Source of the DNA: an uncultured Bacteroidota bacterium | GTDB taxonomy: Bacteria; Bacteroidota; Bacteroidia; Chitinophagales; LD1 | Direction: 5' to 3' | Length of the DNA: 45,641 nucleotides | Assembly (NCBI GenBank): GCA_903927935.1 | Contig: CAIYOV010000128.1 | Span: forward strand, 1-45,641 | Shown: in pieces, positions 20,199-40,991 of the stretch | Layout of the letters: each line of letters opens with the position of its first letter | Numbering within the stretch: the stretch's first letter is position 1 | The notes under the pieces: generated by a model | The model's database searches: none | Told to the model about the DNA's origin: nothing | Seen by the model: only the letters and a program-made list of their open reading frames with translations | Made by a program: the position numbers and the translations under genes

Positions 20199-20255
20199 CT
20201 ATCTGTTTTATGATTGCAATATACGAGCAGATAAATTTTAATTGGGTGTTTTAGG

Positions 20256-20286
20256 AAAAAATAAAGCCCCCGACTTTGCGGGGGCT
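20256..20286 (-). terminator. Rho-independent terminator downstream of the OsmC remnant
   Basis: Stem GCCCCCG (20266-20272) pairs with CGGGGGC (20279-20285). The T-tract on the minus strand is the A-run 20256-20265 on +. Confidence 0.7.
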
Positions 20287-20318
20287 ACACACACCAACAT
20301 ACACACACTATTTATTTC

Positions 20319-20771
20319 TTAAGCAATCACTGCTAATACTTCAACAATTGCTTTCATTTCAATTGTTGCTTTCACTGAGTTTGAAATCAAACAAGCTGCT
20401 TCCGATTTTTGAAGAATGCGCTCTGTACGCTCTTTATCTTTTTCCTCTCGGATAATCACTGCCGGATAAAGTTCTACACGTGTCATTAAAAATTTCCCTT
20501 CGACCTGTTCTAAAATTCCTTTGCTCTCCACCTTAAACGAAACAAAATCAAGTTTCGAGTTTTCGGCAATTGAAAGAAAGGTTGTCATTAAGCAACTGCT
20601 TACGGCTGCTGTAAACTAATGTTCCGGTGACCATATTCCTTCCATCCCTTTCGGAAATTGGGGAGGTGTTGCCACCTCAATACTGTTGTTTAATTCAGCG
20701 GAACTCATCGTTCCTTTTCTGTCACTGTTCCATTCAACGGTTACATTATATTCATGTGGTTCTATATCGAT
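20319..20771 (-). pseudogene. OsmC/Ohr-family protein gene, disrupted (in-frame TAG and no canonical start)
   Basis: Continuous frame reads IDIEPHEYNVTVEWNSDRKGTMSSAELNNSIEVATPPQFPKGMEGIWSPEH*FTAAVSSCLMTTFLSIAENSKL... The TAG is at 20616-20618 (minus). The frame opens after a TAA at 20772-20774, with ATA where homologues would have ATG. The tracked 89-aa ORF is only the C-terminal part. Confidence 0.6.
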
Positions 20772-20807
20772 TTATTTTTTGTATGATTTTTCTTTCTCTC
20801 GCCAAAA

Positions 20808-21269
20808 CTACGGTGCTACCGGATAACCCTTATCTACCCAGTCTACTTTAAAGTTTTCTTTCAGGTTTAAAAGTTTGTGATTGGTAAATCCCATATCGTT
20901 CATCACTTTAAAAGCAGGGCGCACATTCGGACAATGCTCAAACGGGCAGCACCCGCAGTAAATAACTACCGGTTTGTCTTTTGGTAATTTGCTGAGTGCT
21001 GCTTTAAATATTTCGATGTTCACTTCATCTTTCGCTGCGCCCATTTCAATACCACCTGGAATACCTCCGCCAAATCCGATACTATAAATAACCGGCTTTT
21101 CTGCGCTTTCATCATTTAGAATTTTATTCAAGTCAGAAGGTTCCATTAATTGTTTCGCGGTCCACGGTTCGCCTGATACGGAAGAACCCGAACCGGTATT
21201 GTTGCAGGAGAATAGCGTAACAGCAATTATCATTATGATCGTAGAAAAAAATGGCTTCGAGTTTTTCAC
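20808..21269 (-). CDS. Rhodanese-like domain lipoprotein
   Basis: 153 aa. Lipobox LFSCNN. The active-site region VIYCGCCPFEHCPN is Cys-rich. Confidence 0.7.
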   Translation of the reverse strand: MKNSKPFFSTIIMIIAVTLFSCNNTGSGSSVSGEPWTAKQLMEPSDLNKILNDESAEKPVIYSIGFGGGIPGGIEMGAAKDEVNIEIFKAALSKLPKDKPVVIYCGCCPFEHCPNVRPAFKVMNDMGFTNHKLLNLKENFKVDWVDKGYPVAP

Positions 21270-21279
21270 TTGCTATGGT

Positions 21280-21603
21280 TTAAGAGTGTTGTTCAATAAT
21301 CTTTTTCAAAAAATCTGCCGGTACAACCCCGCTTTGACGCCACTTTATCTGCCCGTTTTTAAACAGAATGAGTGTAGGTACTCCCTGAATCTGATAAGCA
21401 GAAGATACCTGCGGGTTTTTATCTACATCAATTTTTATGATACGCGCAGTATCACCTATTTTACCTGCTAGCTCCTTTAAGATAGGCGCCATCATTTTAC
21501 ACGGTCCGCACCATTCAGCCGAAAAATCTACGAGCACCGGAATGTCTGATTTTATCAACTCCGAAAAGGAGTTTGCTTTTTCTGTTGTTTCCATATTAAT
21601 CAT
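21280..21603 (-). CDS. trxA: Thioredoxin
   Basis: 107 aa with WCGPCK. An alternative start at METTEK would remove the 8-nt overlap with the upstream gene. Confidence 0.9.
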
Positions 21604-21850
21604 TTTTTATTTCTTCAAATTTTACCTCTTCAATTTTGTCCGAATTCTTTTTTGCTATTGGCGCAGCGCAACTTTGTGTTCCGCAGCAACCGGTGTTGGT
21701 TACTGCCTGAATGAAAAAGAAAGCGCCAAAAAATCCGAGCATTGAATCGTGTAACATTACCGCCTGCATAATTACATACACTCCAATAGCTAAACGCAGC
21801 AAGCGCATAAAGTGCCAGTTTATAAATAAGTTCTGCTTAAGAGTTTCCAT
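21596..21850 (-). CDS. Small two-TM membrane protein with Cys-rich tail (CCGTQSC)
   Basis: 84 aa. First gene after the type-b box at 21901-21914. Confidence 0.5.
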
Positions 21851-21900
21851 CTGTTGTTATTTTGCTATTGCGAAGTTCGCTTATTTCCTGTTACCGGTTC

Positions 21901-21914
21901 GGAACATTTGTTAC
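21901..21914 (-). promoter_or_regulatory. Type-b box GTAAC-AAAT-GTTCC, promoter of the membrane protein/trxA/rhodanese-lipoprotein unit
   Basis: Exactly 22 nt upstream of the -7-like GAACTTCG (21871-21878), which is 20 nt before the ATG at 21850. Confidence 0.5.
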
Positions 21915-21922
21915 AGAGATGA

Positions 21923-22237
21923 TTAATTTATTCTGTTATTCAGACTTGACCAACCACCGCCATTGTGTACTTCCGGAAAACCGTTTGCTTTTAAAATACT
22001 TTTTGCCTGCGCACTGCGAGCACCTGATGCACAACAGGTAATGATGGGTTTGCTTTTATTCAGTTTAGAATAATGATTAGAAAGATTGTTAAGTGGGATA
22101 TTTACTGATCCTTTGATGTGCCCCTGTTGATATTCTGCTTTTGTGCGAACGTCAATGATAGTGGCTCCGTTATTCAATAATTCTTTGTAATCTACTTTTG
22201 GACCAATGCCGAAAAGCTGTTTGATTGTTTCTATCAT
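21923..22237 (-). CDS. Single-domain rhodanese sulfurtransferase
   Basis: 104 aa. Active-site loop ITCCASGARS. Confidence 0.85.
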   Translation of the reverse strand: MIETIKQLFGIGPKVDYKELLNNGATIIDVRTKAEYQQGHIKGSVNIPLNNLSNHYSKLNKSKPIITCCASGARSAQAKSILKANGFPEVHNGGGWSSLNNRIN

Positions 22238-22249
22238 GTTGTTTTGTTT

Positions 22250-23101
22250 TTAGAATTTAGTTTCGTTAAGGTGATATTTCGAATCGCTTGCAATTGCCTC
22301 CCGAAGTTTTTTCAATGCTACCGGTTGACTGCTCACCACCATTACTTCGGTAAAGTCGCTGTTGATGGAGACCATTTCTATATTTTCAATTTTCATCAAA
22401 TTGCCGGTGATGGTTTTCTTACAACCACTGCATGTTATGCCTGAGACGGCATATAGTTTCACCAAATCTGTGCTGATGTTTTTCTTTTCCATTTCAATAA
22501 ACAATTCATTTCCTTGCCTGGGTTTTATTGAATTATGACAAGTGTCAAATTGTTTGAGGGTAAAGAGAAGTTCGAAGAGTTTTACATATTCTTCTTTGGT
22601 TCCTCCAAATGGTGGGCCTTCCTTTTCGAAGATGATGTTAAACAGCAAACCGGCAATTCTTCCTCCGGTGTTCAGCAGATTAAAACTTTTCACCGCATAT
22701 CTTTCTCGAAGAGAAGGATTAAGTGCACAAAAAAATGTTTGCTCCAGAATCAAATCATACTTCTCGTTGTGGTCGAAAAAATCTGCATGAAGAATTTGTA
22801 TCGGCCTGCCGGTAAATTTTTCTTTCAGTCGATTGACAAGTGTGGAAGAAATATCAATAAGCGTAACACCGGTAAAACCATTGTCCAATAAATACTCGGC
22901 CTCATAAGCGTTGCCGCAACCAGGTATAAGTATGCGCACGTTTTTATCAGTAAGCGTATCAATGAACAACTTGAGTGGAGGAGAAACCTGATGGAGGTCC
23001 CAACCCGTTTCGTTGTTTTGATACTGATTATCCCAGTAGTTTGCGTTCAACGGCAATCCACAGGTGACAACACAACATTCTAATTCTTCTTTCTTTTCCA
23101 T
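22250..23101 (-). CDS. TPMT-family SAM-dependent methyltransferase fused to a C-terminal heavy-metal-associated (HMA) domain
   Basis: Start moved to MEKKEELECC (23101), 8 nt after the upstream rhodanese stop. TPMT-like YWDNQYQNNETGWD, SAM motif RILIPGCGNAYEA, hallmark EKEGPPFGG. The C-terminal ferredoxin-like HMA carries GITCSGC. Confidence 0.75.
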   Translation of the reverse strand: MEKKEELECCVVTCGLPLNANYWDNQYQNNETGWDLHQVSPPLKLFIDTLTDKNVRILIPGCGNAYEAEYLLDNGFTGVTLIDISSTLVNRLKEKFTGRPIQILHADFFDHNEKYDLILEQTFFCALNPSLRERYAVKSFNLLNTGGRIAGLLFNIIFEKEGPPFGGTKEEYVKLFELLFTLKQFDTCHNSIKPRQGNELFIEMEKKNISTDLVKLYAVSGITCSGCKKTITGNLMKIENIEMVSINSDFTEVMVVSSQPVALKKLREAIASDSKYHLNETKF

Positions 23102-23109
23102 TTCGTTTT

Positions 23110-23361
23110 TTAGCAAGTACAATTTACATCTAACCAACTGCCACCATTCGAGCAATCAATTCCAAGGCTCTTTAAAAAGGAAGTGGCTTGTCCGCTGCGG
23201 TTACCGCTGGCGCAACACAAAATAATTGGTTGTGGCAAGGCTTTGATTTCATCAATACGTTGCTGGATTTCCTGCAATGGAATGTTGATGCTTCCGGCCA
23301 CATGTCCACCCATAAATTCTCCTGGTGTTCTTACATCTACGATAGTTTGTTTGTTACTCAT
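23110..23361 (-). CDS. Single-domain rhodanese sulfurtransferase
   Basis: 83 aa. Active-site loop ILCCASGNRS. Confidence 0.8.
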   Translation of the reverse strand: MSNKQTIVDVRTPGEFMGGHVAGSINIPLQEIQQRIDEIKALPQPIILCCASGNRSGQATSFLKSLGIDCSNGGSWLDVNCTC

Positions 23362-23581
23362 GATTGTTGTTTTGATTGTTGTTATTAATTGTTTGGTCTT
23401 TTTGAAATGTGTTAAGGAGAAGTGCGCCCATCATGGCTCCATACAAAGTGCTGTTAAGTGGTTTGGAAGTAATGGCGCATGTTTCGCTTGCGCATCCTAC
23501 AAAATAATAATAGAGATAGCCGCCAATTGCCCCAACTAATATACCTATGATAGTCAGCTTATGTTTTTTAATGAATTCCAT
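23354..23581 (-). CDS. Small two-TM membrane protein with CxxxxC motif (GCASETCAITS)
   Basis: Start moved to MEFIKKHKL (23581), because the tracked start overlaps the upstream gene. Possibly a DUF6132-type protein (from memory). Confidence 0.5.
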   Translation of the reverse strand: MEFIKKHKLTIIGILVGAIGGYLYYYFVGCASETCAITSKPLNSTLYGAMMGALLLNTFQKDQTINNNNQNNNHE

Positions 23582-23591
23582 TTTTTGGGTT

Positions 23592-25007
23592 TTATAATAA
23601 GGTAGTTGGGCACACATAATTGGTTTTAGGCACATTGGTTTTTGCAATCTCTGTAAACCCGCCAACTACATCTGTAAAATTATCGAAGCCCCTTTGCTTA
23701 AGTAGCGATGCTGCAATCATGCTTCTATAGCCGCCTGCACAATTAAGAATAAAAGCTTTGTTCTTCGGAAACTCAGCCAGATGATTGTTGATTTGATTGA
23801 GCGGAATGTTCAGCGCATCAACTACATGTTGCGAATCAAACTCGCTTTTCTTTCTCACATCAATTACCACAGGTTTTTCCAATGAATACTTCCGGACAAA
23901 TTCTTTTGCTGTAATTCTGTTCACGGTTTCAATTTCTTTTCCCGAATTTTTCCAAACATCAAAACCACCTTTTAAATAACCCATTGCGTTATCATATCCT
24001 ACGCGCGATAACCTGATGATGGCTTCTTCTTCTTTGCCTTCATATGTTACCAGCAATATTTCCTGTTTAATGTCAGCAATCATTTCACCCACCCACATAG
24101 CAAAGCTACCATCGAGTGCAATGTTGATGCTGTTGGGAATATATCCTTTTGCAAAGTCATCGGCATTTCTGGTGTCTAATACTAAGGCCTGGGTTTCGGT
24201 TGCTACAACTTCAAACTCTTCAACTGATAAAGGTTTCTTTCCTCTCTCCATAATTTTATCCAGACTTTCATATCCTTTAATGTTCATAAGAACATTTTTT
24301 GGAAAATAACCAGGTGGCGTTGTCAAACCGGTGAGCAGAGATTTAATGAATTCTTCTTTGCTCATATCAGCACGCAACGCGTAATTGAATTTCTTCTGGT
24401 TGCCGAGCGTGTCAGTAGTTTCCTTACTCATCATTTTTCCACAGGCACTTCCCGCCCCGTGATTCGGGTACACAATTAGATTATCGCTTAATGGCATAAT
24501 CTTGTTGCGGAGTGAATCGAAAAGATGTGCCGCCAATTTTTCTTCAGTAAGGTCTGCTATTACATGCTGTGCTAAATCGGGCCTTCCCACATCTCCAATA
24601 AATAAAGTATCCCCCGTAATAATTCCGTGTTCTTTTCCGGTTTCGTCTATTAAAAGATAGGTAGTGCTTTCCATCGTATGTCCCGGAGTGTGAATTACTT
24701 TCACCGAGTAGTCCCCGATTTTAAAAAGCTGATTGTCTTCGGCAACTATAGCTTCAAAACCGGGTTTAGCTGTTGGACCATAAACTATTTGTGCACCGGT
24801 CTTCTTTGCTAAATCTAAGTGACCACTTACAAAGTCGGCATGAAAGTGGGTTTCAAACACATACTTGATTTTCGCGTTATCTTTTGTTGCGCGGTCAACA
24901 TACGGCTGCACTTCTCTTAGCGGGTCAAAAATGGCGGCTTCGCCATTGCTTTCTAAGTAGTAAGCTGCATGAGCAATACAACCGGTATAAATCTGTTCAA
25001 CTTTCAT
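23592..25007 (-). CDS. MBL-fold persulfide-dioxygenase-like domain fused to two rhodanese domains (CstB/Blh-like architecture)
   Basis: 471 aa. ETHFHADFVSGH, HTPGHTMES and GDTLFIGDVGRPD. These are followed by two rhodanese repeats, the last with the catalytic loop LNCAGGYRS. Confidence 0.85.
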   Translation of the reverse strand: MKVEQIYTGCIAHAAYYLESNGEAAIFDPLREVQPYVDRATKDNAKIKYVFETHFHADFVSGHLDLAKKTGAQIVYGPTAKPGFEAIVAEDNQLFKIGDYSVKVIHTPGHTMESTTYLLIDETGKEHGIITGDTLFIGDVGRPDLAQHVIADLTEEKLAAHLFDSLRNKIMPLSDNLIVYPNHGAGSACGKMMSKETTDTLGNQKKFNYALRADMSKEEFIKSLLTGLTTPPGYFPKNVLMNIKGYESLDKIMERGKKPLSVEEFEVVATETQALVLDTRNADDFAKGYIPNSINIALDGSFAMWVGEMIADIKQEILLVTYEGKEEEAIIRLSRVGYDNAMGYLKGGFDVWKNSGKEIETVNRITAKEFVRKYSLEKPVVIDVRKKSEFDSQHVVDALNIPLNQINNHLAEFPKNKAFILNCAGGYRSMIAASLLKQRGFDNFTDVVGGFTEIAKTNVPKTNYVCPTTLL

Positions 25008-25062
25008 TATTCTTGTAATTTGTTTTACGATGCAAAAATGCAGTACCGAAAAATTGTAGTTG

Positions 25063-25076
25063 GGAACATTTGTTGC
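25063..25076 (-). promoter_or_regulatory. Type-b box GCAAC-AAAT-GTTCC, promoter of the MBL-rhodanese ... rhodanese unit
   Basis: Exactly 22 nt upstream of the -7-like CATTTTTG (25033-25040), which is 25 nt before the ATG at 25007. Confidence 0.55.
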
Positions 25077-25088
25077 ATAAGGCTTAAT

Positions 25089-25460
25089 TCACTTTGTATT
25101 GAACCAGATTTTTGCAGCTATTAACACCAACACAACAGCGAATCCTTTTTTCAAACTCTCCTGTGGAATATGCGTGGCAAACTTTGCTCCAAAGTATCCA
25201 CCAATGAAAAACATTGCCGCCAGAATAAGCGCAGTTTTAATTTCTACAAAGCCCTGCTGATAATATTGCCAAGCGGCTAAAGCCCCTACAGGCAATACCA
25301 TCATCACCAACGCAGTACCCTGAGCCATTTGCTGAGAGAAGCCGAGCAGCATAACCAATGCTGGAATGATGACAATGGCGCCACCTAATCCCAGCAATCC
25401 GCTCAATACTCCACCAACCAGACCAATAAGTCCTTTAAAAATTATTTGTGATGGATTCAT
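25089..25460 (-). CDS. TauE/SafE-family (sulfite exporter-like) membrane protein, half-size
   Basis: 123 aa with about 4 TM segments. GLLGLGGAIVIIP motif. Confidence 0.7.
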   Translation of the reverse strand: MNPSQIIFKGLIGLVGGVLSGLLGLGGAIVIIPALVMLLGFSQQMAQGTALVMMVLPVGALAAWQYYQQGFVEIKTALILAAMFFIGGYFGAKFATHIPQESLKKGFAVVLVLIAAKIWFNTK

Positions 25461-25461
25461 T

Positions 25462-25656
25462 TTATTTTTTCTCCTGTTTGGTAGAAAATCTGAAAGACAA
25501 ATACAGCGGACAGAAACTTAGAGCAGATGTAAGCAGAAGAATTCCTGCAAAAACTAAAAGGATAATGGCAACAGTTCCACTAATGATATTCGTAAAATAA
25601 AGGATTACAACAATTGATGCTGCGATAATTCGTGCAACGCGATCAAGGGTTCCCAT
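25462..25656 (-). CDS. DUF2892 (YgaP-like transmembrane domain) protein
   Basis: Start moved to MGTLDRVARI (25656), because the tracked longer ORF would contain its own promoter and box. The C-terminal motif SFCPLY is shared with the 26346-26552 paralogue. Confidence 0.7.
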   Translation of the reverse strand: MGTLDRVARIIAASIVVILYFTNIISGTVAIILLVFAGILLLTSALSFCPLYLSFRFSTKQEKK

Positions 25657-25718
25657 ATTTGGTTTCAAATTGTTTGCTTTTTGTAGTGCAAAGATCCGGC
25701 ACCATAAAAACATGATTA

Positions 25719-25732
25719 GGAACATTTGTTAC
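25719..25732 (-). promoter_or_regulatory. Type-b box GTAAC-AAAT-GTTCC, promoter of the DUF2892/TauE unit
   Basis: Exactly 22 nt upstream of the -7-like GATCTTTG (25689-25696), which is 32 nt before the ATG at 25656. Confidence 0.55.
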
Positions 25733-25739
25733 AGAATGG

Positions 25740-26336
25740 CTAATTAATTCTGTTCATGTATACCGAAACTAAAGGCAAATGAAATTCCATGCTTTCAATT
25801 TTGCCGTTATTAAGATGATAAACATTCCGGTGTCCGTCTGAACTATTAAATTCTAATGTTTTTGAATCAATATGCTTTATTTCATAAAAACTTGCATCCG
25901 GTAAATAAAAAATGCGCTTCACGTTTTTATAATCACAGAAATAAATATTTGCATCAGAACAAATTGGTGCCTCTGAAAAATAACGTGTTGTCTGATTGTT
26001 TGATTCAACCTGATATTGTCTGCCATCATATTTAACCTTAGCCCAACGCTTGGTCTTTCCATTTTCAATCTCAGCATGCGAAGAGGAAATCAATCTGCTA
26101 TTTTTATAAACCGCTTCAAATTTTGAAAGCCCTTCTCTTACAATCCACAAAAATTTTGCTTTCGATTTTGATTCTAACCGGTAAACATCACTGCTGTCTT
26201 TATCAAGCGTATGAACTACATCCATGCGCCCGATGCTATCGCCCCACAGCATAATTTTGAATGATACTGTTTGAGCAGAAAGCACACCAAACGAAACACT
26301 AAATAAAAAGGCCAACCAAAATTCTCTTGCCCGCAA
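25740..26336 (-). CDS. Hypothetical secreted protein
   Basis: 198 aa. Signal peptide ...FGVLSAQT. The mature part looks beta-rich. No recognisable catalytic motif. Confidence 0.5.
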   Translation of the reverse strand: MRAREFWLAFLFSVSFGVLSAQTVSFKIMLWGDSIGRMDVVHTLDKDSSDVYRLESKSKAKFLWIVREGLSKFEAVYKNSRLISSSHAEIENGKTKRWAKVKYDGRQYQVESNNQTTRYFSEAPICSDANIYFCDYKNVKRIFYLPDASFYEIKHIDSKTLEFNSSDGHRNVYHLNNGKIESMEFHLPLVSVYMNRIN

Positions 26337-26345
26337 TTGTGTTAT

Positions 26346-26552
26346 TTATTTTTTCTTGCCCAAAGTGGAAATACCAAAAGGCAAATATAACGGGCAGAAA
26401 CTGATGAGTGATGTGAGAATGAAAATTCCCGCAAACACCAATAACACAATGGCTAAAGTTCCGCTAATTAAGTTCATAAAATAAAGTAGAATGACTACTG
26501 CAGCGGCAAGTAATCTTATTACTCTATCAATGGTTCCTATGTTTGATTTCAT
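26346..26552 (-). CDS. DUF2892 (YgaP-like transmembrane domain) protein
   Basis: 68 aa. IGTIDRVIRLLAA ... SFCPLYLPFG. A clear paralogue of 25462-25656. Confidence 0.7.
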   Translation of the reverse strand: MKSNIGTIDRVIRLLAAAVVILLYFMNLISGTLAIVLLVFAGIFILTSLISFCPLYLPFGISTLGKKK

Positions 26553-26601
26553 ATTATTTGATTTTATAGTGCAAAGATGTTGTATTGTAAAATCGCAGTT
26601 G

Positions 26602-26615
26602 GGAACATTTGTTAC
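26602..26615 (-). promoter_or_regulatory. Type-b box GTAAC-AAAT-GTTCC, promoter of the DUF2892/secreted-protein unit
   Basis: Exactly 22 nt upstream of the -7-like CATCTTTG (26572-26579), which is 19 nt before the ATG at 26552. Confidence 0.55.
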
Positions 26616-26623
26616 TTACCAGA

Positions 26624-26637
26624 ATGATTTTAATCAA
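26624..26637 (-). promoter_or_regulatory. Type-a FNR-like box TTGAT-TAAA-ATCAT, 8 nt upstream of the type-b box
   Basis: 44 nt from the same -7 element (26572-26579), matching the spacing at the nos promoter. It overlaps the stop codon of the Crp/Fnr gene. Confidence 0.45.
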
Positions 26638-27245
26638 TCTAATAACTCGATCACATTTCTGCCCAACCGCACTAAATTTTTCTGTTCCATTTGGCGTAGT
26701 AATCTGCTAATTGCTTCACGGTGTGTGTGCAGTTCATCTGCAATTTGCTGGTGAGTAATGTGAAGTGCTTTTGTATTTAACGCCTGTGCACGCCTTTGCA
26801 AATAATTCAATAACTGAGCATCCATATTGCTGAAAGCAATCAGGTCAATTACATTCATCAGTTCCGCATAACGAATGGCGTATGTGTTGTTGACGAACTC
26901 TTTCCACTCACGAAATCGAAACCATTCATCTACCAGTTCAGCTGGTACCATATACACTTCGGTTTCATCTTCAGTAACCGCTTTTATCATACTTATTTGG
27001 TTCGCGCGGCAACAATTGAGCGACATGGCACAAGTTTGTCCGGGGTAGATATGATAAAGAAAAATTTCACGTCCATCATCGTTTGCTCGAATTACACGAA
27101 TGCTTCCTTTCATTACAATAGGAACAAACAAAATTTTATCTCCGGGATACATCAACACTTCCTCTGCAGCAAAATGTTTTACACGTGCGTGTTTGTTGAA
27201 CTCGGCTAATAGCTGCGGGTCTTTAAAAAAAATATTGGCTGGCAT
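26634..27245 (-). CDS. Crp/Fnr-family transcriptional regulator
   Basis: 203 aa. cNMP-binding-like beta-roll and HTH ITHQQIADELHTHREAISRLLRQMEQ, which has an R-E-x-x-S-R recognition helix. No N-terminal Cys cluster of the E. coli FNR type. Confidence 0.85.
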   Translation of the reverse strand: MPANIFFKDPQLLAEFNKHARVKHFAAEEVLMYPGDKILFVPIVMKGSIRVIRANDDGREIFLYHIYPGQTCAMSLNCCRANQISMIKAVTEDETEVYMVPAELVDEWFRFREWKEFVNNTYAIRYAELMNVIDLIAFSNMDAQLLNYLQRRAQALNTKALHITHQQIADELHTHREAISRLLRQMEQKNLVRLGRNVIELLD

Positions 27246-27284
27246 TATTCGATTTAGCGCGAAACTATTTCTATTGCTTGTATT

Positions 27285-29720
27285 TTATAAACCATTTTTT
27301 CTACCCGCCCAAGTTGATGCGATTGTAGTAAACAAAATAATCGTCACCGAACTTATGGGCATGAGCACCGCAGCAATAAGAGGGCTCATTGTTCCTTTTA
27401 TAGCAAACGAAATTCCTAACAGATTGTAACAGAGCGAAATCACAAAACTAGCTTTGATAATGTTTACTCCTGTTTTAGAATAATTCAATAGGGTATCAAT
27501 TTTATCAAATTGACTTGAATCTATAATGCCGTCACAAGCAGGTGAAAAATTATTTACATCATCGCTGATGGCAATTCCAACTTCTGCCTGTTTTAAAGCC
27601 CCTGCATCATTTAGTCCATCGCCAATCATCATCACTTTTTTGTTGTCAGATTGAATCTGCTTAATCACACATAATTTTTCTGCAGGTTGCTGATGAAATA
27701 CAAGATTCTTCTCGTTTACGTATTGTTTCAGGAAATTCTTCTCCGCATCATTATCGCCACTTACTACATATATTTCAAAATACTTTCGAAGTTTATTCAT
27801 CATCGCACCGAAACCATTCCGGTATTCATTTTTTACCAGGAAGAATCCCCGCACTTTTCCGTTGATACTTACATATACCTTTGAAGCGTGGCGAAAATCG
27901 GAAACATGTGAACCGTCAGCATTCACTTCACCGACCAAAAATTTCTTAGAACCGATACGAACACTATTTTCATCCACCCAACCTTCAACGCCTTTTCCTT
28001 CCTCTTCTTTAAAATCTTCTGTTGGAATAATTTTTACTCCTTTCAAATACTCATAAACTTTTTTGCTGAGAGGATGTGAAGAATGATAGACCAGTGATTT
28101 TATAAGTTGAAGTTCATACTCAGTGATTGATTCGTTGGAATTTTCTTCTGCCTTTACAAACTCAATTTTCGAATTCTTAGTATTTGTAAGGGTTCCGGTT
28201 TTATCAAACACAATTGAATTGATTTGTGCTAATTTCTCAATTGTTAGCGCGTTCTTTAAATAAATTTTATTCCGTCCGAGTATTCGTAGAATATTTCCGA
28301 GTGTAAACGGAGAAGATAAAGCTAACGCGCATGGACAAGTAATGATGAGCACCGAGGTAAAAGCGTTGAGCGCTTTATGTAAATCTTTGTTCCACCAGTA
28401 AGCTGAAGCCAGAAATGCAATGCTAATTACAACCGGAGTAAACCAATTGCTCACCATTGTAGCGAGCGATGTGATATTTTCTTTTTGTTCTTTATTGAAT
28501 GCAGAATCATTCCAAAGCTGTGTGAGGTAACTGTGCGAAACATCTTTCATCACTTCCACTTCAATAGCGCCACCCATTTGTTTTCCTCCTGCATAAATCA
28601 AATCGCCACTGTTTTTTGAAATGGGAGTCGCTTCACCGGTCACGAAACTGTAATCAATATTTCCTTTACCTTTTATTAAAACCGAATCTGCCGGAATCAG
28701 TTCCATGTTGCGCACTAACATTCTGTCGTGCAGACGAAGATTGGTGAGTGGAATGGTAGTTTCATTTCCATTGTTGACAGTGGTAACCGCAACTGGGAAA
28801 TACGATTTGTAATCACGCTCAAAGGAAAGTGTATCGTACGTTTTGTTTTGAAACAATCTTCCAATCAGCATTAAGAGCATCAAACTTGCCATGGTATCGA
28901 AATAACCGCCACCGGTATGCGAGAATACTTCGTAAGTGCTGCGAATGAACATGGCAAGAACGCCAAGCACAATCGGAAAGTCCATGTTCAGTGCTTTTTG
29001 TTTCAGTGCACCCCATGCCGAAACAAAAAATTCTTCAGAGCAATAAAACAAAACCGGAAGTGAGAGAGCAAAATTTAAGTAACCGAAAAATTTTCTAAGC
29101 GGAGATTCTGTAAGTGCATTTATTCCTAAATACTCTGGAAAAGTAAGCAGCATAATGTTTCCAAAACAGAAAAACGCTACTCCAATTTTCAGATAATATC
29201 TCCTCAGGTGATGTTCCTTTTCTTTCCGAGTTAAATCATTGAGGTTGATGTGCGGCTCATAACCTAAAGAAGCAAGTGTTTCAACCACCTGACGGAGATT
29301 CAACTTTGAATTGTCAAATGCGATATGCACTTCACGTTTCATGAAATTGACATTGCTTCGTTTTATTCCGTTCTTTATTTTAAATAGATTCTCCAATAAA
29401 AAGATGCACGAACTGCAATGAATTTGCGGCATGTAAAAAATAACAGTAGAAATATTTCCATCTTTAAACTGAATTAATTGTCTGGCCACCTGTACATCTT
29501 CAAGGTAGGCGTATTTTTTTGCGTTTACTTCTTTTTTGAATGAGGTGCCGGGGGCATTATTCATGTCGTAGTAACTGCACAGATTGTTCCCATCAAGAAT
29601 TTCAAAAACAGTTTTGCAACCGGTGCAGCAGAATTGATGCTGATTAAAAACAATGCTACCATCACAGTTTTCACCGCAATGGTAGCACGTTAAAGATTCC
29701 TCTTCCTTTACTGCATTCAT
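27285..29720 (-). CDS. Heavy-metal (copper-type) P1B ATPase with CcoI/FixI-like N-terminal Cys-rich metal-binding domain
   Basis: 811 aa. N-terminal CYHCGENC...CCTGCKTVF, then TGEA, CPC, DKTGTLT, GDGLNDAGAL and C-terminal MPISS. Confidence 0.9.
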   Translation of the reverse strand: MNAVKEEESLTCYHCGENCDGSIVFNQHQFCCTGCKTVFEILDGNNLCSYYDMNNAPGTSFKKEVNAKKYAYLEDVQVARQLIQFKDGNISTVIFYMPQIHCSSCIFLLENLFKIKNGIKRSNVNFMKREVHIAFDNSKLNLRQVVETLASLGYEPHINLNDLTRKEKEHHLRRYYLKIGVAFFCFGNIMLLTFPEYLGINALTESPLRKFFGYLNFALSLPVLFYCSEEFFVSAWGALKQKALNMDFPIVLGVLAMFIRSTYEVFSHTGGGYFDTMASLMLLMLIGRLFQNKTYDTLSFERDYKSYFPVAVTTVNNGNETTIPLTNLRLHDRMLVRNMELIPADSVLIKGKGNIDYSFVTGEATPISKNSGDLIYAGGKQMGGAIEVEVMKDVSHSYLTQLWNDSAFNKEQKENITSLATMVSNWFTPVVISIAFLASAYWWNKDLHKALNAFTSVLIITCPCALALSSPFTLGNILRILGRNKIYLKNALTIEKLAQINSIVFDKTGTLTNTKNSKIEFVKAEENSNESITEYELQLIKSLVYHSSHPLSKKVYEYLKGVKIIPTEDFKEEEGKGVEGWVDENSVRIGSKKFLVGEVNADGSHVSDFRHASKVYVSINGKVRGFFLVKNEYRNGFGAMMNKLRKYFEIYVVSGDNDAEKNFLKQYVNEKNLVFHQQPAEKLCVIKQIQSDNKKVMMIGDGLNDAGALKQAEVGIAISDDVNNFSPACDGIIDSSQFDKIDTLLNYSKTGVNIIKASFVISLCYNLLGISFAIKGTMSPLIAAVLMPISSVTIILFTTIASTWAGRKNGL

Positions 29721-31559: not shown

Positions 31560-32549
31560 ATGTCGGATGTGAATAAAATTTTGGTGTGCGGAGGAGGAGG
31601 GTTTATAGGCAGCCATTTAATCAGACGTTTAAAGACGGAAGGTTTTTGGGTGCGCGGAGTAGATTTGAAATTGCCCGAACACGAAACTACGTGCGCTGAT
31701 GATTTTGTGATTGGTGATTTACGCGATCAAAAATTCTGTGAGCAGGTTTTTGATACTAAGTATTACCAGGTTTACCAGTTAGCCGCGGATATGGGTGGGG
31801 CTGGTTACATTTTTACTGGTGAAAATGATGCTGATGTGATGTATAATTCTGCACTTATCAATCTGAATATTCTTAATCTTTGTAGGGAAACTAAAGTCGA
31901 ACGTATTTTTTATTCTTCATCGGCTTGTATATATCCGGCACATAATCAGGAAGACCCAAGCAATCCGTTGTGCAGTGAGGAATCTGCATATCCTGCCAAC
32001 CCTGACAGTGAATATGGTTGGGAAAAACTATTCAGCGAACGATTGTATTTGTCCTTTATGCGTAATTATGGTTTGCAGGTAAGAATTGCGAGGTTCCATA
32101 ATGTTTTTGGAACGGAAAGCACCTGGCTGGGGGGTAAAGAAAAAGCACCTTCTGCTTTATGTCGAAAAGTTGCTGAAGCAAAGGACGGAGGAGAAATAGA
32201 AATTTGGGGTGATGGAAAACAAACCCGTTCATTTTTATTCATTGATGAATGCTTGGAAGGGGTAAGAAGATTAATGGAAAATAATTGGGAGGGTCCGGTG
32301 AATATAGGTTCGGAAGAAATGATTTCGATTAATGATTTGGCGAAAATGATTATTGAGATTTCGGGCAAGAAAATTTCTATAAAAAATATTCTGGGGCCAA
32401 CCGGAGTAAGGGGTAGAAATTCTGACAATAAACTCATTTCAGAAAAACTTGGATGGAAGCCCAATTACCCACTTAGAAAAGGTATTGAAAAAACGTATGA
32501 TTGGGTTTTGGAACAGGTCCGGCAAAATTCCACTTCTGCATTTATCTAA
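31560..32549 (+). CDS. GDP-mannose 3,5-epimerase-like extended SDR
   Basis: I prefer the ATG at 31560 over the tracked TTG. GGGGFIGSHL, AADMGG, SSACIYP, YGWEK, KAPSALCRK, GDGKQTRSFLFIDECLEG and GPTGVRGRNSDN closely parallel the plant GME sequence as I recall it. Confidence 0.75.
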   Translation: MSDVNKILVCGGGGFIGSHLIRRLKTEGFWVRGVDLKLPEHETTCADDFVIGDLRDQKFCEQVFDTKYYQVYQLAADMGGAGYIFTGENDADVMYNSALINLNILNLCRETKVERIFYSSSACIYPAHNQEDPSNPLCSEESAYPANPDSEYGWEKLFSERLYLSFMRNYGLQVRIARFHNVFGTESTWLGGKEKAPSALCRKVAEAKDGGEIEIWGDGKQTRSFLFIDECLEGVRRLMENNWEGPVNIGSEEMISINDLAKMIIEISGKKISIKNILGPTGVRGRNSDNKLISEKLGWKPNYPLRKGIEKTYDWVLEQVRQNSTSAFI

Positions 32550-32623
32550 TTTTACCAGGCTTTTTTCATTTCTACATTTCAATTATTTTTTCTCTACTTT
32601 TCGACTTACATAAAGCTTTACGT

Positions 32624-33883: not shown

Positions 33884-33941
33884 GTGGTTTTTTCTATTTG
33901 AATTTCATTCCTTATCATCGCTTCAGAAGGATGAAACAATA

Positions 33942-36902: not shown

Positions 36903-37126
36903 AACCCATAAACTCCTAAACGGAACTACCCCCAAACCCCCTAAAGGGGGCTTAACAGCCAAAGGCAAGTCTGCCTGTTATTGAATAGTCATTGGCTGAC
37001 CATTCAAATTTACGATAATGTAATTTGATAAATGAGAGCTCTCACGAAGGCTTGACAGAGAAAATATTGTTTTTTTCTTTTGCCCGCAACACTAACAAAA
37101 GGTATGTCTTATCTATCATTCTTTGC

Positions 37127-37387
37127 ATGGCACATCGCCCTACACGGGTCGCGTATCGCCTGCCGCCAGTCATCGGTCGCCTTCCGCGGGTCACGCATCG
37201 CCTTCCGCCAGTCATTGGTCGCCCTCCGCGGGTCACGCATCGCCTTCCGCCAGTCATTGGTCGCCCTCCGCGGGTCACGCATCGCATTCCGCCAGCCATC
37301 GGTCGCCCTCCGCGGGTCACGCACCGCCTTCCGCCAGCCATCGGTCGCCATCCGGAGGTCACGCATCGCCTTCCGCCAGTTGGCGGG
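37127..37387. repeat. GC-rich tandem repeat: about 12 units of 21 bp arranged as about 6 units of 42 bp (alternating A/B subunits)
   Basis: Unit A is GTCACGCATCGCCTTCCGCCA and unit B is GTCATTGGTCGCCCTCCGCGG. Exact A-B-A-B copies span 37190-37273, with progressively diverged copies on both sides. Five of six frames are open across it. Confidence 0.9.
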
Positions 37388-37473
37388 AGAATGCTTTTTG
37401 GGGCGATTAGAGGCAAAAAACACGTTTTTTCATATTGGATATTTGCAACAAATTTAAAGACAGCATAAAATAA

Positions 37474-37497
37474 AATAAATGACTTCTGTCATTTATT
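37474..37497. repeat. Perfect 10-bp inverted repeat AATAAATGAC-TTCT-GTCATTTATT
   Basis: Read directly. It lies about 90 bp downstream of the tandem repeat. Confidence 0.7.
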
Positions 37498-37635
37498 GGC
37501 CGTACCATACTTTATTAGAAGGCAAGAAAGTTTCTCAATCATTATGTCCATTTGCCGACATCAGTGACACATGCCGCTAACATCGGGCTAAATGAAATGG
37601 CGCGGGAAGTCATAAGCGTTAAGTTTCCCTACGCT

Positions 37636-37677
37636 GTCCTGAGTCTGACGGAAAGCTTGAGCAAGGGGACTCAGGAC
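37636..37677. repeat. Perfect 10-bp inverted repeat GTCCTGAGTC-N22-GACTCAGGAC (REP-like palindromic element)
   Basis: Read directly. GC-rich arms within AT-rich intergenic DNA. Confidence 0.7.
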
Positions 37678-37774
37678 TTTGCGATAAAATAAAAACCAAG
37701 TGGTAAATAATTTTCCGGTTGGGAAAATTAATAGTTATTTCACATCTCATTTCTACTAACTAAAACTTATTGCT

Positions 37775-39256: not shown

Positions 39257-39280
39257 TAAAAGACTTTAAACGAGTTATAA

Positions 39281-39317
39281 AAACAGCGTAGAAGAGTTTC
39301 TGCGCTGTTTTTATTTT
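39281..39317 (+). terminator. Rho-independent terminator after paralogue 1
   Basis: Stem CAGCGTAGAA (39284-39293), loop GAGT, TTCTGCGCTG (39298-39307), then TTTTTATTTT. Confidence 0.75.
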
Positions 39318-40941: not shown

Positions 40942-40991
40942 GCTAAACCGAAACAATTATTTTCATTACCATAAAACAATCGCTCAACATT

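What the first reader, a model, noticed from the sequence alone, without database searches (positions are those of the whole stretch)
20808..27245. Sulfur-trafficking island of four transcription units, each preceded by the same GTAAC-N4-GTTCC box exactly 22 nt from its -7 element
Seen in sequence: the 14-mer GTAACAAATGTTCC (once GCAACAAATGTTCC) occurs four times on the minus strand, at 26602-26615, 25719-25732, 25063-25076 and 21901-21914. Each copy is in an intergenic gap. Each lies exactly 22 nt upstream of a -7-like element (CATCTTTG, GATCTTTG, CATTTTTG, GAACTTCG) that is 19-32 nt before a start codon. A 5-4-5 palindrome centred near -41 is the classical class II Crp/Fnr activator geometry, and a Crp/Fnr gene (26634-27245) abuts the island. 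The genes behind the four boxes are these. Unit 1: DUF2892 plus a secreted protein. Unit 2: DUF2892 plus a half-size TauE. Unit 3: MBL-rhodanese-rhodanese (persulfide-dioxygenase-like), a CxxxxC membrane protein, a rhodanese, TPMT-HMA and a rhodanese. Unit 4: a Cys-tailed membrane protein, thioredoxin and a rhodanese lipoprotein. Pieces of this resemble the CstR/cst and BigR/blh sulfide-detoxification operons, which have a PDO-rhodanese fusion and TauE-like exporters. Here there is no ArsR/CsoR-type persulfide sensor and no sulfide:quinone reductase in view. Control appears to pass to a Crp/Fnr protein, and a methyltransferase-HMA fusion and three small Cys-containing membrane protein families are added. 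From memory (must be verified), GTAAC-N4-GTTAC was predicted as the HcpR (NO-responsive Crp/Fnr) motif in Bacteroidetes and Clostridia. If so, it would tie reactive-sulfur handling to nitrosative stress next to a nos/ric locus. I consider this the best candidate for an undescribed system in the window.
Basis: partly seen in the sequence, partly recalled or inferred. Interest (0 to 1): 0.8.

Follow-up and report, generated by a model that had tools for sequence, protein, structure and literature searches.

The report
Cysteine-pocket Crp regulator's sulfur-transfer regulon
Four promoters in a rhodanese/thioredoxin/persulfide-dioxygenase gene cluster carry the same 14-bp box, which comparative genomics ties to the neighbouring, uncharacterised Crp/Fnr-type regulator that has a conserved cysteine where CRP binds cAMP. 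This makes it a candidate new type of sulfur or thiol-stress sensor found across Bacteroidota.

Summary
GYAAC-N4-GTTCC occurs four times in 45.6 kb (expected 0.10), always on the minus strand and always intergenic. Each copy lies exactly 22 nt before an 8-mer ending TTTG or TTCG.

In about 40 related loci from Chitinophagales, Prolixibacteraceae and other Bacteroidota, an orthologue of the 26634-27245 regulator usually sits just upstream of a conserved cluster. The core is DUF2892 or DUF6132, two rhodaneses, a Cys-tail membrane protein, thioredoxin and OsmC. The CstB-like dioxygenase, half-TauE and TPMT are lineage-specific additions.

The box survives while its flanks drift, and it changes with the regulator clade: GTAACAwwTGTTCC, TGTGAC-N4-GTCAC, or GTAAC-N4-GTAkC. 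The 22-nt distance to the -7 element stays fixed.

The regulator family has an almost invariant Cys72 (137 of 139 representatives) in the cAMP phosphate-binding cassette, and this clade adds Cys78 and Cys79.

The HcpR/NO idea fails. The motif resembles HcpR2, but the protein keeps Glu at CRP-181, lacks an hcp partner, and matches P. gingivalis HcpR only weakly.

Best reading: a dedicated class-II-type activator with a thiol-based sensor, most likely for sulfane sulfur. The signal and the binding are inferred, not shown.

The parts
26634..27245 (-). Crp/Fnr-family regulator (203 aa). It has a Cys triad (C72, C78, C79; motif GQTCAMSLNCC) in the position of CRP's cAMP phosphate-binding cassette. 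Its recognition helix is HTHREAISRLLR.
   Evidence: Pfam cNMP_binding + HTH_Crp_2. AlphaFold model pLDDT 88.5, with Foldseek probability 1.0 to CRP, NtcA and 3dv8. C72 is conserved in 137 of 139 family representatives. Alignments A1 and A2.
26602..26615 (-). Box 1, GTAACAAATGTTCC, 18 nt after the regulator's stop codon.
   Evidence: An orthologous box lies directly after the regulator in 15 of 18 genome loci.
26572..26579 (-). -7-like element CATCTTTG, 22 nt after box 1 and 19 nt before the ATG at 26552.
   Evidence: consensus gCAnCTTTGCA at fixed spacing.
26346..26552 (-). Unit 1, gene 1: DUF2892 (YgaP-like TM), 68 aa, with conserved motif sfCPlY.
   Evidence: Pfam E 7e-21; motif conservation.
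25740..26336 (-). Unit 1, gene 2: secreted DUF6134 protein, 198 aa, TTG start.
   Evidence: Pfam PF19630, E 1e-10. Accessory: found only in L003 and L006 among related loci.
25719..25732 (-). Box 2, GTAACAAATGTTCC.
25689..25696 (-). -7-like element GATCTTTG, 22 nt after box 2.
25462..25665 (-). Unit 2, gene 1: second DUF2892 paralogue, 67 aa.
   Evidence: Pfam E 7e-19.
25089..25460 (-). Unit 2, gene 2: half-size TauE/SafE-family membrane protein, 123 aa.
   Evidence: Pfam PF01925, matching profile positions 126-236 of 237.
25063..25076 (-). Box 3, GCAACAAATGTTCC. The GC variant is specific to this unit across genomes.
   Evidence: tatGCAACAAATGTTCC precedes the PDO or DUF6132 unit in L001, L002, L004, L005, L006, L011, L015 and L017.
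25033..25040 (-). -7-like element CATTTTTG, 22 nt after box 3.
23592..25007 (-). Unit 3: CstB-type persulfide-dioxygenase-like MBL domain, then a Cys-less rhodanese domain, then a catalytic rhodanese domain (471 aa).
   Evidence: Pfam. PDB 3tp9 E 4e-66 and S. aureus 3r2u E 2e-54, both full length.
23354..23581 (-). Unit 3: DUF6132 membrane protein with motif VGCaSGtC.
   Evidence: Pfam; motif. It is the first gene after the regulator in Prolixibacteraceae and in L150.
23110..23361 (-). Unit 3: single-domain rhodanese, 83 aa, with CCASGxRS loop.
22250..23101 (-). Unit 3: TPMT-family methyltransferase fused to an HMA domain.
   Evidence: Pfam TPMT 7e-27 and HMA 5e-8. In L001-type loci HMA is a separate 99-aa gene.
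21923..22237 (-). Unit 3: single-domain rhodanese, 104 aa, PspE/CstB-C-terminal type.
21901..21914 (-). Box 4, GTAACAAATGTTCC.
   Evidence: The same box and flank (GTAACAAATGTTCCgcaccg...GAACTTTGCAGC) precede the orthologous unit in L002, L004 and L005.
21871..21878 (-). -7-like element GAACTTCG, 22 nt after box 4.
21596..21850 (-). Unit 4: Cys-tail membrane protein, 84 aa, motif n.GCCg...c.
   Evidence: Weak YgaP-like_TM match. Conserved in 25 of 40 loci.
21280..21603 (-). Unit 4: thioredoxin (WCGPC).
   Evidence: Pfam 4e-29. Present in 33 of 40 loci.
20808..21269 (-). Unit 4: lipoprotein with an atypical rhodanese-like loop, IYCGCCPFEHC.
   Evidence: No Pfam hit; weak NCBIfam rhodanese_LYCAU match, 9e-5. 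No homologue in L001-L018, the only loci searched with this protein; several related loci carry a secreted rhodanese-thioredoxin fusion in the cluster.
20319..20768 (-). Decayed OsmC-like gene at the end of unit 4. The start codon has changed from ATG to ATA, and there is an in-frame TAG at 20616-20618 where orthologues have Leu.
20265..20286 (-). Intrinsic-terminator-like hairpin (8 bp, 7 GC) plus a T-run. It is the only terminator-like hit on the coding (minus) strand in 20200-27400; the four other hits there are on the plus strand.

Best explanation
The island is the local regulon of the adjacent Crp/Fnr-family protein (26634-27245).

Inferred from comparative genomics: a dimer of this protein binds the 14-bp imperfect palindrome GTAACA-N2-TGTTCC. 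The box ends 22 nt before a Bacteroidota-type -7 element (nAnnTTTG). On the usual numbering this centres the box near -41.5, where a -33 element would otherwise be.

Inferred from geometry and from the missing -33 TTG: the protein acts as a class-II-type activator of four promoters that would otherwise be weak. The four units are:
- (1) DUF2892 and DUF6134;
- (2) DUF2892 and half-TauE;
- (3) CstB-like persulfide dioxygenase/rhodanese, DUF6132, rhodanese, TPMT-HMA and rhodanese;
- (4) Cys-tail membrane protein, thioredoxin, a rhodanese-like lipoprotein and a now-decayed OsmC.

Inferred from conservation only: the sensor is the cysteine pocket that replaces the cAMP phosphate-binding cassette. 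Cys72 is invariant in the family, and Cys78 and Cys79 lie on the adjoining helix.

Most likely signal, about 45%: sulfane sulfur (persulfide or polysulfide) modifying or bridging these thiols. The regulon would then move, oxidise, export or methylate excess reactive sulfur and re-reduce damaged thiols. The conserved core across the phylum is DUF2892/DUF6132, two rhodaneses, the Cys-tail protein, thioredoxin and OsmC. The dioxygenase, TauE and TPMT modules were recruited in this lineage.
For: - Non-random boxes with exact spacing.
- Phylogenetic footprint. In regulator-anchored loci L001-L024 the box and the -7 element are conserved while the flanks and the 22-nt spacer drift. 31 relaxed-pattern sites fall in the 102 kb downstream of the regulators, against 3 independent sites elsewhere in about 187 kb.
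- Box and regulator change together at constant geometry. The window clade (helix HTHREAISR) has GTAACAwwTGTTCC. Prolixibacteraceae at 38% identity (NSSREVVSR) have TGTGAC-N4-GTCAC. R-V clades at about 40% identity have GTAACAAAAGTAkC or GTAACTAACGTTGC. Each is followed by 22 nt and then xxxxTTTG (one is TAATTTAG).
- Synteny. The regulator is immediately followed by the cluster in all but one distinct regulator-anchored place examined (the exception is the orphan regulator in Flexibacter flexilis, held as L019 and L020). 40 cluster-bearing loci are held.
- Unbiased metagenome pattern scan. 83 of the 121 exact hits lie inside long open reading frames and look like chance. Of all 121, 21 directly precede cluster genes, 12 of them with the regulator adjacent, and no other TF appears beside the remainder.
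- Cys72 is invariant in 137 of 139 representatives. S85 corresponds to CRP S83. The model places C72 at the N-cap of helix 73-81, which carries C78 and C79.
- Sulfur signal. The recruited genes are persulfide-specific (CstB-like PDO; TauE). In E. coli, the rhodanese+DUF2892 protein YgaP is controlled by the sulfide-responsive regulator YgaV (PMC9774250). A DUF2892 gene rises about 10-fold under H2S in Azospira (PMC5358917).
- No canonical CRP box (TGTGA-N6-TCACA, up to 1 mismatch) occurs anywhere in the window, and the single FNR-type match (TTGAYNNNNRTCAA at 33087-33100) lies inside an ORF and is within chance expectation.
Against: - No binding, transcription start site or induction data exist.
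- The regulator keeps Glu at CRP-181, which on the CRP paradigm favours GTGA rather than GTAA. His175 may compensate, but that is speculation.
- The phylum-wide core (thioredoxin, OsmC, rhodaneses) fits a general thiol or oxidant stress response as well as a sulfur-specific one. PDO and TauE occur in only 7 of 40 loci.
- About half of the family members have only one or two of the three cysteines, so a bridging polysulfide cannot be the universal mechanism.
- A single pocket Cys could also ligate haem or a metal.
- Some clusters carry the box with no regulator nearby, and F. flexilis has an orphan regulator, so assignment by adjacency is not absolute.
- A site overlapping -35 could also act as an operator.
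Confidence: 0.55

Rival explanations
1. Same regulator and same class-II architecture, but the signal is general thiol, disulfide, electrophile or oxidant stress (diamide, HOCl, organic peroxides) rather than reactive sulfur. Cys72 would be oxidised to a sulfenate or a disulfide, as in 1-Cys/2-Cys redox switches.
For: The conserved core is thioredoxin (33 of 40 loci), OsmC-type peroxidase (20 of 40) and secreted Trx-like proteins. The persulfide-specific enzymes are minority additions. In Prolixibacteraceae the neighbours include rubrerythrin and SOD, and the target can be Trx alone.
Against: Rhodaneses are universal in the cluster (40 of 40) and usually duplicated. Every lineage-specific recruit seen is sulfur-related (PDO, TauE, YeiH-like, TPMT, DUF302). 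No catalase, AhpC or methionine-sulfoxide reductase was seen. In this window OsmC has decayed while the sulfur genes are intact.
Confidence: 0.25
2. One reading: the box is an HcpR-type (NO-responsive, haem-based) site. This would tie the island to nitrosative stress and to the nearby nos/ric genes.
For: The HcpR2 consensus GTAACnnnnGTTAC differs from the boxes by one base (PMC1274295). P. gingivalis HcpR is the second-best solved relative by sequence (9day, E 3e-8). A nos cluster plus ScdA/Rrf2 lies 12-20 kb away.
Against: The regulator has Glu, not Pro or Gln, at CRP-181. HcpR lacks the family's invariant Cys72 (alignment). No hcp gene is in the window or in the Pfam-annotated related loci (L019-L024, L145-L150). 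There is no box upstream of ric, nsrR-like or nos genes. The nos neighbourhood is absent from related loci.
Confidence: 0.06
3. The cluster handles selenium, tellurium or a soft metal(loid). The regulator would sense selenide, tellurite or metal through its thiols; TPMT would methylate the substrate; HMA, rhodaneses and Trx would traffic and reduce it.
For: TPMT-family enzymes are annotated as Se/Te methyltransferases (NCBIfam TIGR03840 hit). An HMA domain recurs, either fused or free. There are weak matches to the 'rhodanese-related (seleno)protein' family. A CcoI-type Cu-ATPase gene abuts the regulator in 6 of the 18 genome loci, all Chitinophagales or unclassified Bacteroidota MAGs (L002, L006, L007, L008, L016, L017).
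Against: TPMT occurs in only 9 of 40 loci and HMA in fewer. The core has no metal transporter. Mammalian TPMT also methylates reactive sulfur species (PMC13089183), so TPMT fits the sulfur model too.
Confidence: 0.07
4. The boxes are bound by a different protein (for example the REC-Crp hybrid at 100-1161, or an ECF sigma factor reading GTAAC as a -35 element). Alternatively, the adjacent regulator is a repressor whose operator overlaps the promoter.
For: No binding data exist. The box overlaps the -35 region, where repressors also bind. Some box-bearing clusters lack an adjacent regulator.
Against: The REC-Crp helix is FNR-type (GTATESLIR, with Thr at CRP-180), which would not select a leading G. 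It is also absent from related loci. No conserved ECF-type -10 motif appears 16-17 nt after GTAAC; the spacer is unconserved. The box is dyad-symmetric and co-varies with the adjacent Crp clade. The promoters lack a -33 TTG and have a sub-consensus -7 element, which is the signature of activator dependence.
Confidence: 0.07

Closest known systems
CRP/FNR class II activation (E. coli CRP, FNR; cyanobacterial NtcA with GTA-N8-TAC)
   Same: Same protein fold and domain order. A 14-bp dyad of two 5-6 bp half-sites. The site sits at a fixed distance that would centre it near -41.5. The target promoters lack an upstream hexamer. CRP R180, E181 and R185 are retained. The Prolixibacteraceae version of the box, TGTGAC-N4-GTCAC, is essentially a CRP core site.
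   Different: There are no cAMP-binding residues: the phosphate-binding cassette carries Cys72, Cys78 and Cys79 instead. There is no N-terminal FNR Cys cluster. The promoter is the Bacteroidota -7 type. The regulon is small, local and dedicated rather than global.
HcpR2 (Rodionov et al. 2005, PMC1274295) and P. gingivalis HcpR (PDB 9day, 5v30)
   Same: Crp/Fnr family, present in Bacteroidota, with a nearly identical consensus (GTAACnnnnGTTAC) and a small local regulon.
   Different: Glu rather than Pro or Gln at CRP-181. No hcp target. Only about 21% identity to P. gingivalis HcpR, which has no cysteine at the Cys72 position. The targets are sulfur-transfer and thiol-redox genes.
Dedicated persulfide sensors and their operons: CstR-cstAB-sqr-tauE (S. 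aureus), BigR/SqrR/YgaV (ArsR type), FisR (sigma-54 activator)
   Same: Target repertoire: a CstB-type PDO-Rhd-Rhd protein, a TauE-like exporter, several rhodaneses, and a YgaP-like rhodanese plus DUF2892 TM module. The sensor is cysteine-based (here inferred). Like FisR it would be an activator.
   Different: A different regulator superfamily: a 2026 review lists only the CsoR, ArsR and Fis classes as dedicated RSS sensors (PMC13467558). No SQR and no CstA are present. TauE is half-size. YgaP is split into separate genes. Three small Cys-bearing membrane protein families, thioredoxin and OsmC are added.
PDB 3dv8 (Eubacterium rectale Crp/Fnr protein, structural genomics, no assigned function)
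   Same: The closest solved relative (E 4e-22). It shares the H-R-E-x-I-x-R recognition helix and two of the three cysteines.
   Different: It comes from a Firmicute, and its regulon and ligand are unknown, so it offers no functional precedent.

Membership tests
Crp/Fnr transcription factor family | An N-terminal cNMP-binding-type beta-roll, a long dimerisation helix and a C-terminal winged HTH. | tested here: met
   Pfam PF00027 + PF13545. AlphaFold model pLDDT 88.5, with helix 112-156 and HTH 165-188. Foldseek probability 1.0 to CRP, NtcA and T. thermophilus CAP.
Crp/Fnr transcription factor family | Base-contacting residues of the recognition helix (CRP R180, E181, R185). | tested here: met
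   R176, E177 and R181 in HTHREAISR. R176 is conserved in 138 of 139 family representatives and R181 in 137 of 139.
Class II Crp/Fnr-dependent promoter | Dyad site centred at about -41.5 relative to the transcription start. | tested here: inconclusive
   The start sites are not mapped. The box ends exactly 22 nt before the -7 element at all four promoters, and almost always in three regulator clades. That gives about -41.5 only if TAnnTTTG spans roughly -12 to -5, which rests on my memory of the Bacteroides/Flavobacterium promoter literature.
Class II Crp/Fnr-dependent promoter | Binding by the regulator and activator dependence. | not testable with these tools
   Only indirect support: no -33 TTG in the 3 nt after the box, a sub-consensus -7 element, and co-variation of the box with the regulator clade.
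HcpR2 regulon (PMC1274295) | DNA motif GTAACnnnnGTTAC. | tested here: met
   Three boxes differ by 1 base and one by 2. The promoter-proximal half is consistently GTTCC rather than GTTAC.
HcpR2 regulon (PMC1274295) | Pro (or Ser/Gln in variants) replacing Glu at CRP position 181. | tested here: not met
   Glu177 is retained. Across the family the position is E in 101, V in 35 and P in 1 of 139.
HcpR2 regulon (PMC1274295) | Co-localisation with, and a site upstream of, hcp (hybrid-cluster protein). | tested here: not met
   No prismane/hcp domain appears in any window ORF scanned, nor in the Pfam-annotated related loci.
CstR/cst-type sulfide detoxification operon | A CsoR-family persulfide-sensing repressor. 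| tested here: not met
   No such gene is present in the window. The regulator is of the Crp/Fnr type.
CstR/cst-type sulfide detoxification operon | A CstB-type three-domain PDO-rhodanese-rhodanese protein. | tested here: met
   Full-length match to S. aureus 3r2u (E 2e-54) and to 3tp9 (E 4e-66). The HxHxD motif, the GAGSACGK Cys and the C-terminal CAGGYRS loop are all present. That 3r2u is CstB is from memory.
CstR/cst-type sulfide detoxification operon | SQR and the CstA multidomain sulfurtransferase. | tested here: not met
   Both are absent from the window. Single-domain rhodaneses are present instead.
ygaVP-type module (E. coli) | A rhodanese domain plus a DUF2892 two-helix membrane domain, under a sulfide-responsive regulator. 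| tested here: inconclusive
   Both domains are present, but as separate adjacent genes (Pfam). The DUF2892 protein gives no direct phmmer hit to any PDB chain. The regulator is non-homologous, and its response to sulfide is untested.

The most novel reading that the evidence does not exclude
The 26634-27245 protein would be the founding member of a fourth structural class of dedicated reactive-sulfur sensors. It has a Crp/Fnr fold whose cyclic-nucleotide pocket has been converted into a cysteine trap (an invariant Cys72 with or without Cys78/79), and it works as a class II activator across Bacteroidota. Its core regulon would be a previously unrecognised sulfur or thiol relay spanning the membrane. 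That relay would be built from three families of tiny Cys-bearing membrane proteins (DUF2892, DUF6132 and the Cys-tail protein), working with cytoplasmic rhodaneses and thioredoxin and with secreted rhodanese-thioredoxin proteins.
Probability: 0.3. Interest if true: 0.8.

Novelty: new variant of a known kind. Interest (0 to 1): 0.62.

Why it matters
I found no experimentally described sensor for sulfide or sulfane sulfur in Bacteroidota. The known dedicated sensors belong to the CsoR, ArsR and sigma-54/Fis families and come mainly from Firmicutes and Proteobacteria. This work identifies a large, conserved Crp/Fnr subfamily (138 clusters at 50% identity with E<=1e-30) that has three useful properties: a clear candidate sensory residue, a well-defined operator at fixed promoter geometry, and a compact regulon. 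Together these give a directly testable system.

It also assigns a regulatory and functional context to several domains of unknown function (DUF2892, DUF6132, DUF6134 and the Cys-tail protein). Finally, it offers a ready-made inducible promoter and regulator pair for Bacteroidota genetics. If the signal proves to be general thiol stress instead, this would still be a previously unreported thiol-based Crp/Fnr switch with phylum-wide distribution.

Tried and rejected
- HcpR membership was tested and rejected.
- The REC-Crp protein at 100-1161 as the binder was rejected: its helix is FNR-type and it pairs with a PAS histidine kinase.
- An ECF-sigma -35 reading of GTAAC was rejected: there is no conserved -10 motif at 16-17 nt, and the box is a dyad that co-varies with the Crp clade.
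- A recent promoter duplication or repeat as the origin of the four boxes was rejected: the flanks and spacers are unrelated, and orthologous sites are conserved across genomes.
- My recollection that the H2S methyltransferase MddH is a TPMT was wrong; it belongs to the UbiE family.
- Canonical CRP and FNR consensus sites in the window: none of significance.
- Rfam scan of the whole window: no hits.
- phmmer of the DUF2892 protein against the PDB (looking for YgaP): no hit.
- Ten literature searches found no paper on this regulator family, on DUF6132 or DUF6134, or on a Crp/Fnr-type persulfide sensor. The library is incomplete, so this is not proof of absence.
- A genome-wide motif scan was not possible, because only 45.6 kb plus loci of 20 kb or less are available.

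Full report
**Observation.** The pattern GYAACNNNNGTTCC matches exactly four times in the 45,641-bp window, at 21901-21914, 25063-25076, 25719-25732 and 26602-26615. All four are on the minus strand. Dinucleotide-preserving shuffles give a mean of 0.10 matches, and none of 100 shuffles reached four. Reading the minus strand shows that each box lies in a short intergenic gap. Each is followed by exactly 22 nt and then an 8-mer: CATCTTTG, GATCTTTG, CATTTTTG or GAACTTCG. The start codons follow 19, 32, 25 and 20 nt later. A perfect GTAACACTGGTTAC at 44207-44220 lies inside an MFS transporter gene, so I treat it as chance. No canonical CRP site occurs anywhere in the window. The only FNR-type match is intragenic and within chance expectation.

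**Gene content.**
- 26634-27245 is a Crp/Fnr protein.
- Unit 1 is DUF2892 (YgaP-like TM) plus a secreted DUF6134 protein.
- Unit 2 is a second DUF2892 plus the C-terminal half of a TauE/SafE protein.
- Unit 3 is an MBL-rhodanese-rhodanese protein, DUF6132, a rhodanese, TPMT-HMA and another rhodanese. The first of these aligns full-length to PDB 3tp9 (E 4e-66) and to S. aureus 3r2u (E 2e-54), which is the CstB architecture.
- Unit 4 is a Cys-tail membrane protein, thioredoxin and a lipoprotein with an odd rhodanese-like loop.

In this window the OsmC-like gene has decayed. Its start codon is ATA where orthologues have ATG, and a TAG replaces a conserved Leu codon. The rest of the window holds a clade-II-type nos cluster, ScdA/RIC plus an Rrf2 regulator, a PAS kinase with a REC-Crp hybrid regulator, a CcoI-like P-type ATPase directly upstream of the island's regulator, and T9SS esterases. 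It holds no SQR, no hcp, and no ArsR or CsoR regulator.

**Comparative genomics.** A scan of one genome per species with the regulator returned 18 loci, mostly Chitinophagales MAGs. In 15 of them a strict box lies within about 25-50 nt after the regulator's stop codon. Further boxes precede the orthologous PDO/DUF6132 unit and the Cys-tail/Trx unit.

The flanks and the 22-nt spacer are not conserved, whereas the box and the 8-mer (consensus gCAnCTTTGCA) are. Even the box variant is specific to its unit: tatGCAACAAATGTTCC precedes the PDO or DUF6132 unit in eight genomes. With a relaxed pattern, 31 sites fall on the coding strand within 6.5 kb after the regulators, against three independent sites elsewhere in about 187 kb.

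More distant regulators show the same arrangement. In Prolixibacteraceae (38% identity; helix NSSREVVSR) the box is TGTGAC-N4-GTCAC. In clades with Arg-Val in the helix it is GTAACAAAAGTATC, GTAACAAAAGTAGC or GTAACTAACGTTGC, and two of these overlap the regulator's stop codon. In every case 22 nt separate the box from an 8-mer ending TTTG (one is TAATTTAG). A box sequence that changes with the regulator's recognition helix while the geometry stays fixed is the strongest available evidence on two points. It indicates that the adjacent protein is the cognate factor, and that it works from a position fixed relative to RNA polymerase.

**Regulon census.** I ran an exact-pattern scan of metagenome contigs (box plus N26 plus TTTG). 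Of these, 83 sites lie inside long open frames and look like chance. Across all 121 sites, 21 directly precede DUF2892, DUF6132 or rhodanese genes of the same cluster, and 12 of those have the regulator immediately upstream. Where the regulator is not adjacent, the upstream genes are unrelated housekeeping genes and not another regulator. Flexibacter flexilis shows the converse case, an orphan regulator.

Across the 40 cluster-bearing loci I hold, the frequencies are:

| Component | Loci (of 40) |
|---|---|
| Rhodaneses | 40 |
| Thioredoxin | 33 |
| DUF2892 | 30 |
| DUF6132 | 26 |
| Cys-tail protein | 25 |
| OsmC | 20 |
| TPMT | 9 |
| TauE-half | 7 |
| PDO | 7 |

Occasional extras are a free HMA protein, a DUF983-like protein, a YeiH-like membrane protein and DUF302. 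So the conserved core is a sulfur-transfer and thiol-redox set. The sulfide-detoxification look of this window comes from lineage-specific recruits.

**The regulator.** It is a typical Crp/Fnr fold: AlphaFold pLDDT 88.5, with Foldseek probability 1.0 to CRP, NtcA and T. thermophilus CAP. The closest solved relative by sequence is 3dv8, an uncharacterised E. rectale protein (E 4e-22). P. gingivalis HcpR (9day) comes next at only E 3e-8.

The family is large: 1474 clusters at 50% identity with E<=1e-10, and 138 with E<=1e-30. In 139 representatives Cys72 is present in 137, Ser85 (equivalent to CRP Ser83) in 123, Arg176 in 138 and Arg181 in 137. Cys78 and Cys79 are each present in about half, and the full triad in 50.

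Aligned to CRP, Cys72 sits at Gly71/Glu72 and Cys78/79 sit in the short helix of the phosphate-binding cassette. The model puts Cys72 at the N-cap of helix 73-81, which carries the other two. The cAMP-binding arginine is gone. I infer that the pocket has become a thiol-based sensor. This is not demonstrated.

**Mechanism proposed.** The usual Bacteroidota promoter has TAnnTTTG at -7 and TTG at -33 with a spacer of about 19 bp. That description is from my memory of the B. fragilis and F. johnsoniae literature and was not checked here. On that basis the box would span about -48 to -35, centred near -41.5. The three bases where the -33 TTG should be are caa, taa, caa and gaa. Weak promoters with an activator site in place of the upstream element are the class II pattern, so I read the protein as an activator.

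For the signal I favour sulfane sulfur, at about 45%, for these reasons:
- Rhodaneses are universal in the cluster.
- Every recruited accessory gene is sulfur-related, and CstB-type dioxygenases act on persulfides.
- In E. coli the rhodanese+DUF2892 protein YgaP is co-transcribed with, and controlled by, the sulfide-responsive SqrR/BigR homologue YgaV (PMC9774250).
- A DUF2892 gene is induced about 10-fold by H2S in Azospira (PMC5358917).
- Mammalian TPMT methylates reactive sulfur species (PMC13089183).

The main rival, at about 25%, is a general thiol or oxidant stress signal. It is favoured by the thioredoxin/OsmC core and by the Prolixibacteraceae loci where the target is just DUF6132 and/or thioredoxin.

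**Comparison with known systems.** Membership nevertheless fails on the protein (Glu177; no orthology to HcpR; HcpR lacks Cys72) and on the target (no hcp in the window or the Pfam-annotated loci). The nos/ric neighbourhood is not conserved. Functionally the island overlaps the cst, blh and ygaVP modules, but its regulator comes from a different superfamily. A 2026 review lists only the CsoR, ArsR and Fis/sigma-54 classes as dedicated RSS sensors (PMC13467558). Ten literature searches found nothing on this regulator family or on DUF6132/DUF6134.

**Verdict.** The Crp/Fnr-control interpretation is strongly supported by footprinting and by co-variation. The HcpR/NO link is not supported. The system is a new variant of a known kind: a Crp/Fnr class-II-type activator with an undescribed cysteine-pocket sensor and an undescribed regulon conserved across the phylum. 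Binding, start sites and the inducing signal all remain to be shown.

Noticed in passing
window 20319-20768 (minus strand): The OsmC-like gene that ends the cluster is decayed here. Its start codon is ATA where eight orthologues have ATG (MEPH...). An in-frame TAG at 20616-20618 replaces the Leu of the conserved SPEHLFTAAV motif. The gene is intact in the related loci.
   Followed up: yes
window 20808-21269 (minus strand): A lipoprotein with an unusual Cys-rich loop (IYCGCCPFEHC). It has no Pfam hit and only a weak match to NCBIfam 'rhodanese-related (seleno)protein' NF041203. No homologue was found in L001-L018, the only loci searched with it; several related loci carry a secreted rhodanese-thioredoxin fusion in the cluster instead.
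   Followed up: partly
window 100-2427 (minus strand): A PAS histidine kinase followed by a hybrid response regulator with REC + cNMP-binding + Crp-type HTH (353 aa). Its recognition helix is FNR-like (T-E..R). No significant FNR box was found in the window, so its targets are unknown.
   Followed up: partly
window 37135-37380: A 42-bp tandem repeat with 5.9 copies and 91% matches, lying between the TonB-dependent receptor gene and a T9SS esterase gene. The region is open in several frames on both strands. Its nature is unknown.
   Followed up: partly
window 44207-44220: A perfect HcpR2-consensus palindrome, GTAACACTGGTTAC. It lies inside the MFS transporter ORF 43820-45109 and has no -7 element at the right distance, so it is probably chance.
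   Followed up: partly
window 27285-29720 and loci L002, L006, L007, L008, L016, L017: A CcoI/FixI-type P-type ATPase (with ATPase-cat_bd and HMA domains) ends 39 nt before the regulator's start codon. It is the conserved upstream neighbour in these six loci (Chitinophagales or unclassified Bacteroidota MAGs) but not in other orders. Co-transcription with the regulator is possible.
   Followed up: partly
L001 3105-3404 and equivalent positions in L002 and L005: A free-standing 99-aa HMA-domain gene sits between DUF6132 and the 83-aa rhodanese. In the window that gene is absent and an HMA domain is fused to the C-terminus of TPMT instead, which suggests a gene fusion or rearrangement.
   Followed up: partly
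L149 about 5605-5625 and L150 about 5610-5630: In two remote clades the predicted operator (GTAACTAACGTTGC and GTAACAAAAGTAGC) overlaps the regulator's own stop codon. The end of the regulator gene and the target promoter are therefore physically interlocked.
   Followed up: partly
window 3643-6309: A beta-eliminating lyase (tryptophanase or Cys-desulfhydrase-type, 459 aa) lies next to ScdA/RIC and an Rrf2-family regulator, just upstream of the cytochrome c and nosZ-L-D-F-Y cluster. It could be a local source of sulfide or a sink for it. Not examined.
   Followed up: no
window 32501-42629: Three paralogous BD-FAE esterases and a GDSL lipase, each with a Por_Secre_tail (T9SS) sorting domain, flank a TonB-dependent receptor gene.
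   Followed up: no
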